From: Chiloscyllium plagiosum
Lineage: Eukaryota
Assembly: GCF_004010195.1 (NCBI RefSeq)
Contig: NC_057718.1
Location: 9,764,290 to 9,784,289, forward strand
Direction of reading: 5' to 3'
DNA length: 20,000 nt
This document shows positions 161 to 15,873 of this stretch, one piece after another. The notes under the pieces are model-generated. The model ran no database searches, was not told the origin of the DNA, and worked only from the letters and a program-made list of their open reading frames with translations. The position numbers and the translations under genes are program-made. Every line of letters starts with the position of its first letter. Within the stretch, counting starts at the first letter, position 1.

Positions 161-1058
161 CCATTTCCACCACCTACAAACAGAATCATCCTCCAACATT
201 TTTGCCACCTACAAACGGACCCTACCACCAGACATATATTTCCCTCCCCACCCCCACCCACTTTCCGTAAAGATCGTTCCCTCCATGACTATCTGGTCAG
301 GGCCATGCCCCCCCAACAACCCACCCTCCCATCCTGGCACCTTCCCCTGCCACTGCAGGAATTGCAAAACCTGCGCCCACACCTCCCCCCTCACCTCCAT
401 CTAAGGCCCCAAAGGAGCCTTCCACATCCATCAAAGTTCCACCCGCACTTCCACACGTCATTTACTGTATTCGTTGCTCCCGATGAGTTCTCCTCTGCAT
501 TGGGAAGGCAGGATGCATAAATGCAGAGCACTCCAGAGAACATCTCTAGGACACCCACACCAATCAACCCCACCGCCCCATGGCCGAACGCTTCAACTCC
601 TCCTCCCACTCCGCTGAGGACATGCACGTCCTGGGCCTCCTCCATCACCACTCCCTTACCACCCAACCCTTGGAGGAAGAACGCCTCATCTTTCACCTCG
701 GGACCCACCATCCCCATGGCATCAATGTGGATTTCACCAGTTTCATCATTCCCCCTCCCTCACCTTACCCCAGTTCCAACCTTCCAACTTGGCACCGCCC
801 TCATGACCTGTCCCACCTGTCCATCTTCTTTCCCACATGTCTGCTCCACCCTCCTCTCTGACCTATCACCTTTACCCCTAACTCCATCCACCTATTGTAC
901 TCTCAGCTACCTTCCCCCCCAGCCCTACCTCCCTCCCATTTATCTTCACCCTAAGGCTCCCAGCCTCATTCCTGTTGAAGGGCTTATGCCCGAAACAGCA
1001 ACTCTCCTGCTCCTCGGATGCTGCCTGATCTGCTGTACTTTTCCAGCACCACACTCGA
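161..1058 (+). mobile_element. Penelope-like retroelement, 5'-truncated: decayed GIY-YIG endonuclease region plus 3' terminal repeat
   Basis: Frameshifted translation PGTFPCHCRNCKTC ... VIYCIRCSR*..CIG ... MAERFNSSSH...EEERLIFHLGTHHPHGINVDF is typical of PLE GIY-YIG domains. Flanked by a perfect 12-bp direct repeat CATTGAACTCAA (149-160 and 1059-1070). Confidence 0.85.
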
Positions 1059-1146
1059 CATTGAACTCAATATTCTGCTCCCACTTTCTCTCAATTCCTT
1101 TGATCCTTCTAGCTCTGAGAACTATACCTAAATCCTTCTTGAAAAC

Positions 1147-1463: not shown

Positions 1464-1900
1464 TCATAGAATCATAGAGTCAGACATCATGGAAACAGAC
1501 CCTTTGGGGTCATACCCACCATGTTCCCAACTAGTCCCACATGCCTGTGTTTGGTCCATATCCCTCCAAACCTTTCCTATTCATGTACTTATCCAAATGT
1601 ATTTTAAACGTTGTAACTATATCTGCATTCACCACTTCCTCTGGCAGTTCTTTCCACGCACAAACCATTCTCTGTGTAAAAACATTGCCCCTTGTGTCCT
1701 TTTTAAATCCTTCTCCCCTCACTTTAAAACCAAACCCCCAGTTATGAATTCCCCAACCTGGGGGAAAGACCCTTGTCATTCACCGTATCTATGCTCCTCA
1801 CGATTGTACAAACCTCAATAAAAGTTCACCCCTCAACCTCCTTCACTCCAGTGAAAAAAGTCCCCGTATTTCCAGTCTTTTTTTTATCTCGAACCCTTCA
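1464..1900 (-). mobile_element. CR1-type LINE 3' end (younger family)
   Basis: ORF 1531-1779 FKVRGEGFKKDTRGNVFTQRMVCAWKELPEEVV...FKIHLDKYM is a CR1 ORF2 C-terminus. Tandem 8-mer tail (tctatgat/tctatgac) at 1464-1483. Similar to the copies at 4384, 9492 and 15661. Confidence 0.85.
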
Positions 1901-2044
1901 TTCCCAGCAATGAATATAGTCCCGCTGACCCAGTCCCTCTTCAAACACCAGCCCTGCCAACCCAGGAATCAATGCGGTGAACTTTGCTGCACTCCCTCCA
2001 TAGCTAGAACATCCTTCCTCAGGTAAGTAGGCCAAAACGTCACA

Positions 2045-2160
2045 CAGTTGGCATGCAAATACTAACCTCAAAGTAAAATGCTCAGGCAGCTGCCAACCTA
2101 CAAAATGAAGTTTGGGATGTGGAATGTCAGAACTCCCACAGACAACCCCAGCAATGAAAT
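2045..2160 (+). mobile_element. Possible RTE-type LINE 5' fragment (AP-endonuclease N-terminus)
   Basis: MKFGMWNVRTPTDNP resembles the FGTWNVRTL motif that begins APE domains of RTE-clade LINEs. It interrupts the CR1. Confidence 0.5.
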
Positions 2161-2620
2161 GATATCTTTTCTTAAAGGTACTGCTCACTGTACTTCAAGT
2201 GTGGTCTTACCAACACCTTGTACATTTGCAGTAAACTTCCCTACTCTTATACTTCAACCCTTTTGAAATGAGGGCCCACATCTCATTAGCTTTTCTGATT
2301 ACCTGCTGTCCCTGTGTGCTAGCTTTCTGTGTATCCCGCACTAGTTCCCCCAAGTCCTTTGCTGTTGCAGCTTCCTGCTGTTTCTCTCCAATTAAATAAT
2401 ACTGCATATCTGCCCCCCCTTCCAAAGTGAACAATTTCAAAATTTATCTACATTATACTCCATTTACCAACTGTTTGCACACTTAATCTATCAATAGATC
2501 TCTCTAAACCATTTACATCCTCTTGCAACTTACCTTTCCACCTATTTTTGTGGAGTCTGCAAATTTGGCTACAATCCATTGACTTCCTTCCTTAAGGTCT
2601 TTATTATATGTTGTAAATAG

Positions 2621-3176
2621 TGTGACAACACTGTCACTTTAAAAGGGTTATTTTGCTCTTGGTTTTTATTGGAGAGGTCATAAAGGCAGAGGTGCCGAGG
2701 GGTTTAGGGAGTTTAACAGTTTAACAATGGAAGGAGAGTGGCCAGTTCTCCCAGATCAGGTAATTTCTAGATTTCTTTTAGTTGTAGCAGTCATGTGTGA
2801 GCCCAGAAGAGCTGCATGCTTCAGTGAAGGATTCCTGATTTTCTCTTAAATCTCTCTATGGGTTGTTCCCTCCTGCCTGTAAGAAACTGTGTCTGAATTT
2901 ACTTTTTTGCCAAGGGGTGTGTTTATCGGATGTTACTGTATTGGAACAGTTTATCGGTAATAGTTTTTGTATCAGGTCAGTTAAGTTTTCCAATAGTTAA
3001 GCTGTTCTAAGTTCCACGTTTTTTATTAGTGTTTAAATAAATTGTGTTTTGCTTAAAGCCAGTAACATCACACATGGAAAACCCACTTCACATCTGCCTT
3101 TAAAATAAGAAAAAGTTAGTTCCAGGCTATCTTCTTAAAACATTTTGAGGGGGGTCTGGCCTGGTCCCTCACAACA
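2621..3176 (+). mobile_element. Solo LTR-like element inserted in the CR1
   Basis: TGT...ACA termini and AATAAA at 3035-3040. The CR1 reads through when it is removed (tgtaaatag|ttgcagacccagcactgatccc). Its 3' end is homologous to 19688+ in reverse orientation. No clean TSD. Confidence 0.65.
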
Positions 3177-4383
3177 TTTGCAGACCCAGCACTGATCCCT
3201 GTGGAATCCCACCGGTTACAAGTCATCAACCTGATGTTCTAGCTATGGAAGGAGTGCAGCAAAGTTCACCACACTGACTCCTGCCTTGGCAGGGCTGGTG
3301 TTTGAAGAGGGACTGGGTCAGCTGGGACTATATTCATTGCTGGGAATGAAGGGTTTGAGATAAAAAAAAAGACTGGAAATACTGGGACTTTTTTCACTGG
3401 CGTGTAGGAGGTTAAGGGGTGAACTATTTTCCCGCTGTTTCCTCCCTATTGGCCAAATCTCTTTCCATGCCAATATATGACCTCCAACAGTCTGATCGTA
3501 TATTTTACAAGGTACCATGTCAAATATCTTCTGGAAGTTCAAATACTACACACCTACTGGTTCCCCTCCATCCCCTTGGGTTGACACTTCCTAGTAATAA
3601 CTCTAATAATAGACATGGATTTCCTTTCATGATGATATGCTGACTCTGCTTAATTAGATAATGCTTTTCTAAATGTGCTTTTACTTTCTTAATTATTGAT
3701 TTCAATATTTTTCCAACAATAGATGTTAGGCTAATCAACCTATTGTTCCCTACTTTTTGCCTTCCTCCCTTTTGAAGAAGGGTGTCACATTCATAGGTTT
3801 CCAATCCTTTGACACTTCTTCAGAGTTGAAGAATTTTTGGAACATTACAAACAATGCATTTATTATCTCTGCAGGTACCTCTATTAGAATCCTAGGATGC
3901 AAGTCATCAGGGCTGGAGATTTTTCTGTGTTTAGCCTAATTAGCTTGTCTAACACTACTTCTCTAGAAATGGTACTTAATTCCTCCCCCCATTATTTCAT
4001 ATTACTGGGTTCTTTGAAGTATCTCCATCATAAAGACTGATTAAATTCCTCTTCCATTTCCTTGTTCTCCATAACTGTCTTCCCAGAATTATTTTCTAAC
4101 AGGTCTGTGTTCATTTAGACCTTTGTCCCTTTTTAAGTTTTTAGAGAAGCTCTCAGTCAGTTTTATGCTCCTTGCTAATTTGCCTCATTGTGTTTTTTCT
4201 CTCTTTTAATTATCCTTTTGTGCTCCTTTGCTGGATTTTGAACTTATCCCAGTCTTTGGGGCCATCACTGACTATGCCTCCTTAAATGCTTTTTTTTCCA
4301 ACTTAATACCCTGCTTAATTTGCTTGGTTAGCCATGGTTGATTTATCCCTCTCAATCTTTCCTCTTTGGGATACATGTTTGCT

Positions 4384-4800
4384 GAGTCATACAGCACAGA
4401 AACAGATCCTTTGGTCCAATGTGTCCATGTTGACCAGATATCCTGAATTAATGTAGCCCCATTTGCTAGCATTTGGCCCATATTCCTCTAAATCTTCCCT
4501 ATTCATGTGCCCATTCAGATGCCTTTTTAATGTTGCAATTACACTGGCCTCCACCATTTCCTCTGGCAACTCATTCTATATACATATCATCCCCTGCAAA
4601 AAAAAAGACATACCCTTTTCAATCATACTCCTCTCACCTTAAACCAATGCCCTCTAGTTTTGGACTTCCCTACCCTGGGGAAAAAAACCTTGACTTTTCA
4701 TCCTCTCCATGCCCCCCACGATTTTATAAACCTCTATATGGTTATTCCTCAGCCTCTCACACTCCAGGGGAAAATAGCCCAAGACTATTCCATCTCCCCC
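4384..4800 (-). mobile_element. CR1-type LINE 3' end (younger family) nested in the older CR1
   Basis: RLRNNHIEVYKIVGGMER...PEEMVEASVIATLKRHLNGHMNREDLEEYGP, with the same 3'UTR as 1464-1900. Confidence 0.85.
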
Positions 4801-5372: not shown

Positions 5373-5800
5373 CACTTCATAGCTAATACCATTCATGAAG
5401 CCATTAGAGTTTCCTGGAACAGGGCATGGATCAAGCAGAGAACTCAATACAATCAAAATTCCCACAGGAAGTACTGGATTGCAACAGGGATGCTCTGGTC
5501 TGCATGACCTCATGCTGGAGTGGGTGGCCATTTCAGCAAGAGGCAAAGATCCAGTTGCTTCTTCATGGGTGGTTTTTTAACACTGCCTTCCTGCTGGCAC
5601 CTCATTTACTCAAGGACTGCGTGTCTGCCGTCATTTTGTTAACTCGTGAGATCTCCGGGACAGAGAGGGAAATAATTCATCTAAGGACAAACACCTTATT
5701 TCTCACAGGTGTAGTGAGCCTTGAGTAACTGTAACCCTGGGGGATTTCCTCTCTCAGTCTGTGATGCCTCTATAAGTCTAAGGTTAGACATGACAAAAGA

Positions 5801-6280
5801 TATTCCCATGCCTGCCCCTTCTTCCTCTGCCATCCACAATCCCATTCCACCCTCCCCTATCATTCCAAGTCCCACCCACCCATTAATGCAGGTTGGGCAG
5901 AAAATAACCCTGCATTCTGGAAGATTCGATTCTCTTCCAAATGAGAGATGTTACTTTAATCGCCACAGTGTCCAGTATAACATAGCATGTTAGACTAGCC
6001 TCAACTTCACTATCAATTTAGCAAAACAAACATGCAGATAATTAGAATCAACAGAAAGTGCTGGAGAAACATAGCATCCATAATGATATAAGGTTTGAAA
6101 AAAGCCATACTAGACTCAGAAGCGATTAAAGTAAGATCTCATTTGAAAGAGAATCTAACCTTCCAGAATGAGGGTAATTTGCTGCCCACCCTGCATTGAT
6201 TGGGGGTGGGACTTGGAATGATAGGGGAGGGTGGAATGGGATTGTGGATGGCAGAGGAAGGAGGGACAGGCATGGGAATA
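5801..6280. repeat. Inverted repeat with arms 5801-5963 and 6122-6280 and a 158-bp spacer
   Basis: tattcccatgcctg...ttactttaatcgc is the reverse complement of gcgattaaagtaa...caggcatgggaata, about 90% identical by eye with small indels. Confidence 0.95.
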
Positions 6281-6414
6281 CCTAACATGATCCCATTTTA
6301 AAAGCAAGATATGAATGCAAATTGTTGTTGTCTGCATCACATGCTGCACCTGATAAGTGAGTGATGGATCAGTCTCATGCAGAGTAGGAACACAAGGAAC
6401 AAAAAGTAAAACAC

Positions 6415-8493: not shown

Positions 8494-8627
8494 CTGAAAA
8501 GTAAATGGTGTTAAGGGTGAATGTAATCAACAGTTCAACATGTCCATTCAGCCTGACACTCCTCCCCTCACTCATCTTTAATGTCGATGTGTAATGTAGT
8601 TTTAGTACTGGTCTTACCTATGTGCTA

Positions 8628-8767
8628 GACGAAAGTGAGGACTGCAGATGCTGGAGATCAGAGTAGAGAGTGGGGTGCTGGAAAAGTACAGCAGGTCAGG
8701 CAGCAGAGAAGCAGGAAAATTGACGTTTCGGGCAAAAGCCCTTCGTTAGAAATGAGAGGCTTTTATA
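8628..8767 (-). mobile_element. Short Penelope-like terminal-repeat insertion (same family as the 3' end of 161-1058) inside the U12 intron
   Basis: The reverse complement matches 963-1058 (gaagggcttttgcccgaaac...ctgctgtacttttccagcacc). Perfect 14-bp TSD TTACCTATGTGCTA at 8614-8627 and 8768-8781. Confidence 0.88.
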
Positions 8768-8929
8768 TTACCTATGTGCTATTCTACATCACAGACTTAA
8801 AAACAGTCAAAAATCAAAATGTTGCTAACAGCAGAAATAAACATTCACATCAGGAGGAGGAATTTTCTTGGGATAGGGAAGGACTTAGAAACCTGAATAA
8901 TGTTTATCCGTTAAAGGACTGAAAAATAG

Positions 8930-9491: not shown

Positions 9492-9772
9492 CTTTGGGTG
9501 AGAGGGAAAGATATAAAAGAGACCCAAGGAGCAACTTTTTCACGCAGAGGGTGGTATGTGTATGGAATGAGCTGCCAGAGGATGTGGTGGAAGCTGGTAC
9601 AATTGCAACATTTAAAAGGCATTTGGATGGGTATATGAATAGGAAGGGTTTGGAGGGATATGGACCGGGTGCTGGCAGGTGGGACTAGATTGGGTTGGGA
9701 TATCTGGCCGGCGTGGACGGATTGGACCGAAGGGTCTGTTTCCGTACTGTACATCTCTGTGACTCTATAACT
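9492..9772 (+). mobile_element. CR1-type LINE 3' end
   Basis: ORF 9494-9688 RSNFFTQRVVCVWNELPEDVVEAGTIATFKRHLDGYM, with tail tctctgtgactctataact. Confidence 0.88.
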
Positions 9773-11684: not shown

Positions 11685-11901
11685 CATTTCCAAGAAGGTA
11701 AAGCAGGGTTCATCGGACACCTATGCATACGCATATAATTGTCTAACCAGGTTTCGTAGTTTCCAGCAGGGATCTTGCTGATCTGCACTCAACTTCACTT
11801 GCAGCTAATAACTTTCAGTGCAGGGAGAAAATGTCAGCTTCAAATCAAATAGTGAAACCTAGTTTGCATTTTGAAGAACGTTAAAGCCACATTTTTTTTT
11901 A

Positions 11902-12129
<228 letters not shown>

Positions 12130-12324
12130 TTAAAATGTACAGTCCTTCAGAGTAGGAAACCATGGCTGCATGATGCAGAGTGCAGACTGTGTCAATGGAG
12201 AGAGGACGGCTTGAGCTCTCCACTCTTCAGTTGATGCTCTAGACCATTCCACAATCACCTGTCACACATCTGTTCACTTCAATCTCTCCATATCCCCCTT
12301 CACTGTTGACTATACCTCAGAGAT

Positions 12325-12554
12325 AAAAAATAACACAACACCAGTTTATAGCCTAACAGGTTTATTTGGAAGCACTAGCTTTCTGAGCACTGCTCCCTCA
12401 TCAGGTGGTTGTGGAATAACTCCAGAACCACCTGATGAAGGGGCAGCACTCAGAAAGCTAGTGCTTCCAAATAAACCTGTTGGACTATAACCTGGCGTTG
12501 CATGATTTTTAACTTTGTACATGCCAGACCAACACTAGCACCTCCAAATCACGA
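12325..12554. mobile_element. Palindromic Penelope-like terminal-repeat insertion with TSD
   Basis: Inverted arms 12324-12410 and 12426-12511, plus a ~43-nt extension on one side. Perfect 13-bp TSD ATACCTCAGAGAT at 12312-12324 and 12555-12567. Confidence 0.88.
12426..12466 (+). ncRNA. Minimal type I hammerhead ribozyme motif (mirror copy on the minus strand at 12370-12410)
   Basis: aaccac-CTGATGA-a-ggggc-agc-actca-GAAA-GCTA-gtgctt: intact core boxes, stem I cac/gtg extended by aa/tt, palindromic AGCT stem III and a CUA cleavage triplet. Stem II is imperfect. Confidence 0.65.
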
Positions 12555-12599
12555 ATACCTCAGAGATTTTGTTTCATTTTTAGATGCTGAAATAATGCT

Positions 12600-13030
12600 C
12601 AAGTTTAGGCCATTACTATGATCAAAAACAAGAGTGTTGAAACAAACTCCTGGGGAACACCACTCCACCTCCCACGGCTCTGAAAAATGTCAGTCACTAA
12701 CTTTTGCCCCACGGCAGCCACACTACCATGTTCCTTTACTCTTACGGGCTTTCATTTTGCTAATGAATCTATGACATGGTTATTTTGTCAAAATTCTTTG
12801 GAAATCTGGATACATAACATCTATTTTACTATCCCAACAATAAATTTGCACTGCCCTTCTAAACGAACTCAATCAAATTGTTCAAACACAATTTGCCTTT
12901 AACAATTAAGTACAGACTTTAATTTTGTCCTGGATTATAGTCTCCAAAAGCTCTTCACCATTGATATTAGGTTGACTGGCTTATGGTTGCAAGTTTACAA
13001 TCCTCCAGTGTTCTGACAGCAACCCAATAT
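12600..13030 (-). mobile_element. Old CR1-type LINE RT fragment
   Basis: tggggaacaccactc, ttttgtcaaaattctttggaaatctggatacataacatc, aaattgttcaaacacaatttgccttt and gatattaggttgactggc are degenerate reverse complements of the CR1 RT motifs (GVPQG, DFxKAFD, YRPVSLT). Confidence 0.55.
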
Positions 13031-15660: not shown

Positions 15661-15873
15661 TTTCACACAGAGAATGGTACGTGTATAGAATGAGCCGGAG
15701 AGGAAGTGGTGGAGGCTGGTACAATTACAACATTTAAAAGGCATCTAGATGGGAATATGAAGAGGAAGGGTTTAGAAAGATTTGGGCCAAGTGCTGGCAA
15801 AAGGGACTCAGTTAATTTAGGATACCTGGTCGGCATGGACAAATGGGACCAAAGGGTCTGTTTCCTTGTTGTA
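15661..15873 (+). mobile_element. CR1-type LINE 3' end
   Basis: Directly similar to 9538-9750 (tttcacacagagaatggtacgtgtatagaatgagc...aagggtctgtttcc). Confidence 0.85.

What the first reader, a model, noticed from the sequence alone, without database searches (positions are those of the whole stretch)
12312..12567. TSD-flanked palindromic insertion carrying a hammerhead ribozyme motif on each strand, in a CCDC28A intron
Seen: a 230-bp insert between perfect 13-bp direct repeats, made of ~87-bp inverted arms around a 15-nt spacer, plus a 43-nt one-sided extension. Each arm contains CTGATGA..stem II..GAAAGCTA with a flanking stem I (plus 12426-12466, minus 12410-12370). Both arms have A rather than a pyrimidine before GAAA, which suggests they were copied from one template. 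Known: Penelope-like element terminal repeats carry minimal type I hammerheads with palindromic stem III that work as dimers, and they can insert as inverted terminal-repeat pairs. Inference: this is a non-coding, retrozyme-like PLE derivative about 240 nt upstream of a CCDC28A acceptor. The pre-mRNA would carry a sense-strand hammerhead (minus copy, stem II GAGC/GCTC) that competes with a long dsRNA hairpin (a possible ADAR substrate).
Basis: partly seen in the sequence, partly recalled or inferred. Interest (0 to 1): 0.72.

Follow-up and report, generated by a model that had tools for sequence, protein, structure and literature searches.

The report
Fold-back stump of Penelope-like retrotransposon
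This intronic palindrome is an old, decayed and very common kind of stump left by a Penelope-like retrotransposon, whose two ribozyme copies are damaged and locked in a hairpin, so it is ordinary in itself, although the family's stumps hint at where the element's RNA begins.

Summary
Observation confirmed: 13-bp direct repeats, a 230-bp insert, inverted arms (87%), a one-sided 44-nt extension and a hammerhead motif on each strand. It is not a separate retrozyme or MITE. The arm is the 3' end of an abundant RT + CX4CxxC + GIY-YIG Penelope-like element: 18 of 19 endonuclease loci carry it. The layout is the published 'inverted pLTR + tail + TSD' insertion, cut down to its minimum. It was the commonest form in a tail-selected sample (13 of 20). 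The family majority fits a minimal dimer-type hammerhead, but both arms here have lost G10.1-C11.1, and the hammerhead fold costs about 63 kcal/mol against the hairpin. A second species shares the insertion. Editing was not testable. New lead: arm 5' ends pile up (16 of 23) about 21-44 nt behind a conserved TATA-like box, and the two arms of an insert share a subfamily marker (37 of 42). This suggests two run-off cDNAs from one RNA. The scan already reported this insertion type elsewhere in this genome (e1-7858806, e1-7789271).

The parts
12312..12324 (+). left target-site duplication (13 bp)
   Evidence: 26 of 42 family inverted pairs have such repeats of >=10 nt vs 0.85 in mismatched pairs
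12325..12418 (-). inverted, tail-less copy of the PLE 3' end (family positions -14 to +78, C3 of the core = 0); sense on the CCDC28 pre-mRNA
12370..12410 (-). decayed minimal type I hammerhead: core from 12404, G10.1.A11.1 mismatch (12384), predicted scissile site after 12376
12419..12554 (+). direct copy of the PLE 3' end (family positions -13 to +122), including the tail; blunt junction with the other arm at 12418|12419
12426..12466 (+). decayed minimal type I hammerhead: core from 12432, G10.1.A11.1 mismatch (12452), weakened stem II, predicted scissile site after 12460
12511..12554 (+). one-sided PLE 'tail'; family 3' ends cluster at about +78 to +87 and +117 to +122
12555..12567 (+). right target-site duplication (13 bp)
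11919..12082 (-). host CCDC28-family exon (context, not part of the insertion); acceptor AG at 12084-12083; exon end inferred from the reading frame
   Evidence: (PF13270, E 7e-12)

Best explanation
An old, fixed, extremely 5'-truncated insertion of a very abundant endonuclease-bearing Penelope-like retrotransposon (Neptune/Nematis-type linker). It has the known PLE layout: TSD, inverted tail-less 3' end, direct 3' end with tail, TSD. Shown here: family identity, TSDs, two preferred 3' ends about 38 nt apart, concordant subfamily marker in the two arms, varied and often templated centres, and decay of both hammerheads. Inferred, from the PAc biochemistry of PMC11167929 plus these patterns: the GIY-YIG domain cut both target strands 13 nt apart. 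The RT then primed twice, at the two internal sites (about +82 and +120) of one element RNA, and both cDNAs ran to about the same upstream point (-13/-14). End-joining fused them head-to-head. Today the insert is inert intronic sequence. On the pre-mRNA the antisense arm is made first, so the sense hammerhead emerges into an 85-90-bp hairpin, has no sense partner to dimerise with, and lacks G10.1-C11.1; it should not cleave. Odds: truncated PLE insertion about 0.93; no cleavage in vivo about 0.9; two primings on one RNA about 0.6.
For: The arm lies within 1.5 kb of the GIY-YIG region in 18 of 19 loci found by protein query, at 81-91% identity. Those loci encode RVT_1 (41 bits, above cut-off, in 1 of 4 frames scanned; sub-threshold in 2), a DKG-like motif, a CX4CxxC linker and the CCHH endonuclease pattern (motif definitions from PMC8557442 passages). 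TSDs of >=10 nt flank 26 of 42 inverted pairs (null 0.85) and 13 of 16 short inserts of the tail-selected set (null 0.6), including inserts over 2 kb (L070, L079, L080). 13 of 20 tail-selected copies are adjacent fold-backs like this one. Arms agree at subfamily site 51 in 37 of 42 pairs vs 21.3 by permutation (p 0.0005). Inner ends of the two arms correlate (rho 0.63, n = 31); 4 of the 9 pairs with one end beyond -40 lie within 35 nt, vs 0.6 expected. L033 and L080 have the tail on one arm and the long body on the other, which simple fold-back of one cDNA cannot make. The same centre recurs with the tail on opposite arms (L003/L012, L015/L016, L006/L029), and L006 and L029 differ at site 51 in both arms. 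The hammerhead fold is 62.7 kcal/mol above the ensemble. Contigs of a second species cross both junctions (2 runs, 2 studies).
Against: No intact full-length element was recovered, and the step from tail to ORF start was not seen in the 3 upstream stretches fetched. No RT tree was built, so the clade rests on motifs. All loci were ranked by likeness to the focal copy or its ORF, and only 40-150 candidates of thousands were scored. In the 29 short pairs, shared variants other than the subfamily markers are no more frequent than chance (3 vs 3.4). 5 of the 9 longer pairs do not have matched inner ends. 16 of 42 pairs lack a TSD of >=10 nt. The folding result is an equilibrium model without proteins, and the PAc hammerhead cleaved only with protein present (PMC11167929).
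Confidence: 0.85

Rival explanations
1. A non-autonomous, retrozyme-like mini-element: a palindromic master RNA is itself retrotransposed in trans by the PLE protein, and the stumps descend from such masters.
For: Short fold-backs are the modal form (13 of 20) with a narrow range of 5' ends. Three pairs of loci have the same or mirrored centre, one of them with an identical 13-nt insert (L006/L029). A master read from either strand could give swapped tails. Animal retrozymes derive from pLTRs (bioRxiv 10.64898/2026.07.22.740005).
Against: Most centres differ. L006 and L029 differ at site 51 in both arms. Lengths grade continuously into ORF-bearing inserts with the same ends and TSDs. Retrozymes as defined there are head-to-tail tandem units with two same-strand hammerheads, which this insert is not (one search found no tandem array here). 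A palindromic RNA buries its own priming sites.
Confidence: 0.08
2. The inverted arm arises by self-priming (fold-back) of a single cDNA or RNA, not by two priming events.
For: Correlated inner ends, concordant marker and templated snap-back-like inserts in several centres. Self-priming was proposed for PLE inverted junctions in PMC3846280 (passage).
Against: In L033 and L080 neither arm is contained in the other. The tail-less arm stops at the second preferred 3' end (about +82) instead of running on, which fits a second initiation site (PMC11167929). This rival changes only how the insert was made, not what it is.
Confidence: 0.25
3. A functional or co-opted intronic element: a hammerhead/hairpin switch or an ADAR substrate that regulates CCDC28 pre-mRNA.
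For: A stable hairpin lies 242 nt upstream of the acceptor, and the insert is retained in two species. Some editing of a long intronic duplex is expected from general knowledge of ADAR (recalled, no call).
Against: Both ribozymes have lost the G10.1-C11.1 pair that PMC4209133 calls highly conserved. The arms carry 7 and 13 scattered changes from the family majority, several at CpG, and are only 86% alike. Minimal PLE hammerheads showed no cleavage as monomers in PMC4209133. Fixation is expected of neutral inserts in a family this large.
Confidence: 0.05
4. A MITE derived from a DNA transposon.
For: Short, palindromic, TSD-flanked and high copy.
Against: The ends are asymmetric (tail on one side only), TSD lengths vary (10-18 nt as scored), and the same sequence ends RT/GIY-YIG elements.
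Confidence: 0.01

Closest known systems
Complex insertions of endonuclease-bearing Penelope-like elements with inverted pLTR, tail and TSD (Arkhipova et al. 2013, PMC3846280; Craig et al. 2021, PMC8557442 Fig. 2; passages read)
   Same: Head-to-head inverted 5'-truncated copy, 30-40-nt tail at one end only, TSD around the whole unit, hammerhead in the terminal repeat.
   Different: Both halves are cut to 94 and 136 nt with no ORF. This minimal form is the commonest insert sampled (13 of 20), and 5' ends pile up just before the hammerhead.
Minimal type I hammerheads of metazoan PLEs (Cervera and de la Pena 2014, PMC4209133; parts 1-2 of 4 read)
   Same: The family majority has the core boxes, the extra base between positions 9 and 10.1, G10.1-C11.1, and a palindromic 15.1-16.1 stretch (AGCU). 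The paper already notes pairs of motifs about 100-700 bp apart on opposite strands, ascribed to truncated PLEs.
   Different: Sharks are not named in the parts read. The two focal copies have lost G10.1-C11.1.
PAc (Poseidon of Anolis), Frangieh et al. 2024, PMC11167929 (parts 1-2 of 4 read)
   Same: Two RT start sites downstream of the hammerhead that bound the tail; both target strands cut and extended. The family here has two 3'-end peaks about 38 nt apart.
   Different: This family has the CX4CxxC linker that Poseidon lacks. The paper does not derive mini-palindromes from run-off to the RNA 5' end in the parts read.
Animal non-LTR retrozymes (bioRxiv 10.64898/2026.07.22.740005; parts 1-3 of 5 read, supplements not seen)
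   Same: Non-coding, pLTR-derived, hammerhead-bearing; reported from one chondrichthyan genome.
   Different: Those are head-to-tail tandem units with two same-strand ribozymes. This insert is head-to-head with one ribozyme per strand and cannot form an intramolecular dimer.

Membership tests
EN+ Penelope-like element (insertion of) | [quoted passage not shown] | tested here: met
   Arm in 18 of 19 GIY-YIG loci; RT motifs and endonuclease in one 397-aa frame of L075; RVT_1 41 bits in L062. Pfam's GIY-YIG model did not hit; the endonuclease is read from motifs.
EN+ Penelope-like element (insertion of) | Inverted 5'-truncated copy at the 5' end and a 30-40-nt tail at one end only | tested here: met
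   3' ends cluster at about +78 to +87 and +117 to +122.
EN+ Penelope-like element (insertion of) | Variable-length target-site duplication | tested here: met
   13 bp here; 26 of 42 and 13 of 16 in the family.
EN+ Penelope-like element (insertion of) | RT phylogeny groups with PLEs and telomerases | not tested
   No reference PLE proteins were fetched and no tree was built.
Neptune/Nematis clades | CX2-5CxxC linker before the GIY-YIG domain (absent in Penelope/Poseidon) | tested here: met
   CX4CxxC in the frames; definition from PMC8557442. It does not separate Neptune from Nematis; the preprint found only Neptune and Poseidon in vertebrates.
Minimal type I hammerhead (family majority) | Core boxes, stems I and II, G10.1-C11.1, palindromic helix III, NUH site | tested here: met
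   Majority of 120 arms; 39 of 120 individual arms pass all criteria.
Minimal type I hammerhead (family majority) | Compensatory covariation in stems | tested here: inconclusive
   Two single-arm double-sided changes among the pair types listed; the rest are CpG-type decay. A second family next to L056 has the same layout with a different stem II and palindrome (read by eye).
Minimal type I hammerhead (the two focal copies) | Intact G10.1-C11.1 pair and an accessible fold | tested here: not met
   G.A mismatch in both arms; fold probability about 1e-44 in the 230-nt transcript.
Minimal type I hammerhead | Self-cleavage as a dimer | not testable with these tools
   Needs in vitro transcription.
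Non-LTR retrozyme | Head-to-tail tandem units, each with a same-strand type I hammerhead | tested here: not met
   No tandem array at the site; arms are head-to-head.
Non-LTR retrozyme | Transcribed and processed to circular RNA | not testable with these tools
   The one RNA run laid gave 0 reads.
MITE | Symmetric terminal inverted repeats, fixed-length TSD, no link to an RT | tested here: not met

The most novel reading that the evidence does not exclude
The mini-palindromes are the 'strong-stop' products of a PLE. Transcription starts at about -8 to -10, roughly 30 nt behind a TATA-like box at -40 in the terminal repeat. The RT primes at two internal sites only about 90 and 130 nt downstream on that same RNA, both cDNAs run off its 5' end, and they are joined head-to-head between two staggered nicks. 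The genome would then hold a huge in vivo record that maps the element's transcription start and both RT start sites, and explains the PLE inverted-repeat-plus-tail layout by double priming on one RNA. Support: 16 of 23 tail-selected copies end at -19 to +4, none at the ribozyme cut (+29), 3 further down and 4 further up. The 9-nt TATA stretch is exact in 34 of 49 longer copies, and A(-8) is present in 49 of 49, while -22 to -13 differs between subfamilies. Against: AT-rich UTRs hold such boxes by chance (T at -45 is also invariant), the Drosophila Penelope promoter is TATA-less (PMC2377424 passages), the sample is small and ranked by likeness, and RT stalling or a short master would give a similar pile-up. 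Not seen in the papers read or the listings, nor in the scan look-up.
Probability: 0.4. Interest if true: 0.6.

Novelty: new member of a known kind. Interest (0 to 1): 0.3.

Why it matters
The single insert matters little: it is one decayed copy of a very large repeat family. The family is useful because the origin of PLE inverted ends and tails is still open (PMC3846280 and PMC11167929 both say so). Here thousands of TSD-bounded minimal inserts make double priming, fold-back and mini-master models testable by counting alone. If most inserts are hairpins of about 90 bp, they would also be a large source of intronic double-stranded RNA in this genome (inference, not measured).

Tried and rejected
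Rfam at E<=10 over the window: no hammerhead family; the mir-9 and MIR9471 matches are below their gathering scores and reflect the hairpin. No RNA holder was listed for 11850-12900. The one raw RNA run laid (X22, about 6 in 100 of it read) gave 0 reads, so it is no test of expression, editing or cleavage. No empty-site joint was among the 15 joints shown, with 150 not shown. The long 'open frames' of L081 and L077 were assembly gaps. Three upstream stretches gave no full-length 5' end. The shared A before GAAA as proof of one template was set aside: both arms have it in 2 of 10 pairs; it is in 15 of 95 arms found by DNA query and 0 of 25 found by protein query. A pile-up of 5' ends at the ribozyme cut site was looked for and not seen (0 of 23; one incidental copy in L017 starts at +29). 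Cofolding two arm copies did not give the dimeric hammerhead for either arm or for the majority sequence, but the model lacks tertiary contacts, so this was not used. Lower divergence of core columns (25 of 1195 vs 125 of 3433 downstream) was not taken as selection, because base composition differs. Summed contig depth over the arm was about 5e5 times the flank in two DNA-type runs; the tool warns this is no copy number, so it is used only as 'very abundant'. Paper searches for a description of this shark family found none: 1 review; 0 papers. Repbase and Dfam could not be checked, and unseen supplements of the 2026 preprint may list it. The Pfam Endotoxin_C match at E 0.2 on the endonuclease piece is far below cut-off and was ignored.

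Full report
Observation. The sequence is as described. Identical 13-bp repeats at 12312-12324 and 12555-12567 enclose 230 bp. Inverted arms of 90 nt (87% complementary) lie at 12326-12415 and 12421-12510, and 12511-12554 is unpaired. The minus strand folds at -149 kcal/mol, z -17.4. CUGAUGA...GAAA cores begin at 12432 (+) and 12404 (-). A PF13270 CCDC28 exon begins at 12082 on the minus strand behind a canonical acceptor, 242 nt from the insert. A versus B paralogue was not tested, and no upstream exon was sought. Rfam found no hammerhead family at E<=10.

What the arm is. In the window's own 3.56-Gb genome the insert drew 6,403 first-look candidates, the long arm 3,808 and the last 83 nt 1,725 (these are not copy numbers). 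Many copies found with the arm continue upstream into shared sequence and then into a decayed ORF with a CX4CxxC linker and a GIY-YIG-type, CCHH-bearing domain. That domain drew 51,108 candidates. Of the 19 other loci returned, 18 carry the arm within 1.5 kb at 81-91% identity. They also encode PLE-type RT motifs. Of 4 frames scanned, one passes the RVT_1 cut-off, two hit below it and one has no hit; Pfam's GIY-YIG model did not hit. By the definitions in PMC8557442 (passages) this is a C-terminal-endonuclease PLE of Neptune/Nematis type; no tree was built. The insert is therefore two 3' ends of this element, head-to-head: positions -14 to +78 inverted and -13 to +122 direct (C3 of the core = 0), joined without an insert. 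The 'spacer' is just their abutting 5' ends.

The layout is the published one. PMC3846280 (passages) and PMC8557442 Fig. 2 describe an inverted 5'-truncated repeat, a 30-40-nt tail on one end and a TSD. PMC4209133 (parts 1-2 of 4) already notes minimal hammerheads paired on opposite strands and ascribes them to truncated PLEs. Here family 3' ends fall in two peaks, about +78 to +87 and +117 to +122, like the two RT start sites that bound the tail of PAc (PMC11167929, parts 1-2 of 4). After dropping 7 duplicate loci, 42 long/short inverted pairs were scored. 26 of 42 have flanking repeats of >=10 nt with at most one mismatch, against 0.85 for mismatched flanks, and these include inserts over 2 kb. 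Scored lengths can include a few letters of the element's end. To avoid selecting for palindromes I searched with the tail region alone and took the 23 best of 39 non-self hits, 20 of them newly fetched. 13 of the 20 are adjacent fold-backs like this one, 1 has a 137-nt body between the arms, 3 are short solo ends and 3 run beyond the fetched stretch. 13 of the 16 scored have TSDs (null 0.6). The finding is thus the modal insert of its family in this sample.

The hammerhead. The majority of 120 aligned arms has every feature that PMC4209133 lists: core boxes, an extra base after A9, a 5-bp stem II closed by G10.1-C11.1, the palindrome AGCU as helix III, and a 3-bp stem I with a possible extension. 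39 of 120 arms pass all criteria. Compensatory changes are nearly absent (two single-arm cases), as expected for neutrally decaying copies. Both focal arms fail at G10.1-C11.1 (G.A). They differ from the majority at 7 and 13 positions and are 86% alike. In the 230-nt minus-strand transcript, forcing the hammerhead costs 62.7 kcal/mol (probability about 1e-44). The antisense arm is transcribed first, and the only other ribozyme copy is on the other strand, so no dimer partner exists in cis (inference). A minimal PLE hammerhead did not cleave as a monomer in PMC4209133. The PAc ribozyme needed its protein, so an equilibrium model is not the last word. Contigs from a second species (2 runs, 2 studies) run from unique flank across both TSDs into the arms, so the insertion predates that split. 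The one RNA run laid gave 0 reads, so editing and expression are untested.

How it was made. The two arms of an insert agree at a subfamily marker (alignment column 51) in 37 of 42 pairs against 21.3 by permutation, so they come from one template or one subfamily. Beyond the markers, the 29 short pairs share no excess variants (3 vs 3.4). An earlier scan note (e1-7858806) suggested that centres are built anew; I tested this. Most centres differ, several hold templated copies of nearby core sequence, and three pairs of loci have the same or mirrored centre with the tail on opposite arms. One of these pairs (L006/L029) differs at the marker in both arms. Inner ends of the two arms correlate across 31 pairs from non-palindrome queries (rho 0.63); 4 of the 9 longer pairs match within 35 nt (0.6 expected) and 5 do not. 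In L033 and L080 the tail is on one arm and the long body on the other, which a single folded-back cDNA cannot give. The simplest reading, inferred and put at about 0.6, is two nicks, two primings at the two internal sites of one RNA, and end-joining of the two cDNAs.

A new lead. Long-arm 5' ends are not spread evenly: 16 of 23 tail-selected copies end between -19 and +4, none at the ribozyme cut site, 3 further down and 4 further up. In 49 longer copies a TATA-like box at -40 is conserved (9-nt stretch exact in 34 of 49) and A(-8) is invariant, while -22 to -13 differs between subfamilies. A spacing of about 30 nt from TATA to start site is recalled textbook knowledge. This fits run-off to a transcript 5' end near -10, a PLE counterpart of retroviral strong-stop DNA (analogy recalled). 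A putative TATA plus Inr was noted in a rotifer pLTR (PMC3846280), but the Drosophila Penelope promoter is TATA-less (PMC2377424 passages). The sample is small and ranked by likeness, and stalling or a short master are open rivals. I give it 0.4. I did not see this reading in the papers read or the listings.

Verdict. A real, well-described feature, but an ordinary decayed insertion of a known class: a new member of a known kind. It works like a PLE complex insertion and meets the tested features of one. It fails the definitions of a non-LTR retrozyme (preprint 10.64898/2026.07.22.740005, parts 1-3 of 5, supplements not seen) and of a MITE. No paper on this shark family turned up (PMC6155905 was seen as passages only); repeat databases could not be checked. 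The scan had reported the same insertion type twice elsewhere in this genome. Interest 0.3, nearly all of it from the family-level lead.

Noticed in passing
window 8615-8780 (-) and 975-1060 (+): Ends of what looks like a second hammerhead-bearing PLE-like family with a different stem II and palindrome, cores decayed. The 8615-8780 copy is a solo end between 13-nt direct repeats. A cleaner copy follows the tail in L056, and one sits behind a GIY-YIG-like frame in L102.
   Followed up: partly
window 5798-6283: About 490-bp element with 80-nt terminal inverted repeats (96%) and further inner inverted segments; MITE-like.
   Followed up: no
window 1820-3428: About 1.6-kb stretch bounded by about 190 nt of inverted repeats (92-98%) with no long ORF inside; possibly inverted LINE fragments or a non-autonomous DNA element.
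   Followed up: partly
window 1526-1713, 4390-4605, 9506-9751, 15699-15873: Four copies of one repeat at 71-81% identity, in both orientations; looks like the 3' end of a CR1-type LINE (name recalled, not tested).
   Followed up: no
window 12246-12261: A 15-of-16 match to the 5' end of the arm, 50 nt left of the left TSD (I2); chance or a tiny older remnant.
   Followed up: no
L006 and L029 (also L003/L012, L015/L016): Identical or mirrored centres, in L006/L029 with the same 13-nt templated insert, but with the tail on opposite arms and different TSDs.
   Followed up: partly
L064 2184-2852: Two long 3' ends joined tail-to-tail rather than head-to-head, the rarer arrangement.
   Followed up: no
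window 11888-12084, run X4: A run of unrecorded kind shows about 5-13 times more depth on the exon than on the introns and a contig ending at the acceptor, so it may be RNA. Its locus-specific contig to 12375 has no differences. Kind unknown, so not used as evidence.
   Followed up: no
window 12500-12530 (+): The tail region of the family reads like a branch point plus acceptor on the element's sense strand (by eye). It is absent from the arm that is sense to the host gene here.
   Followed up: no
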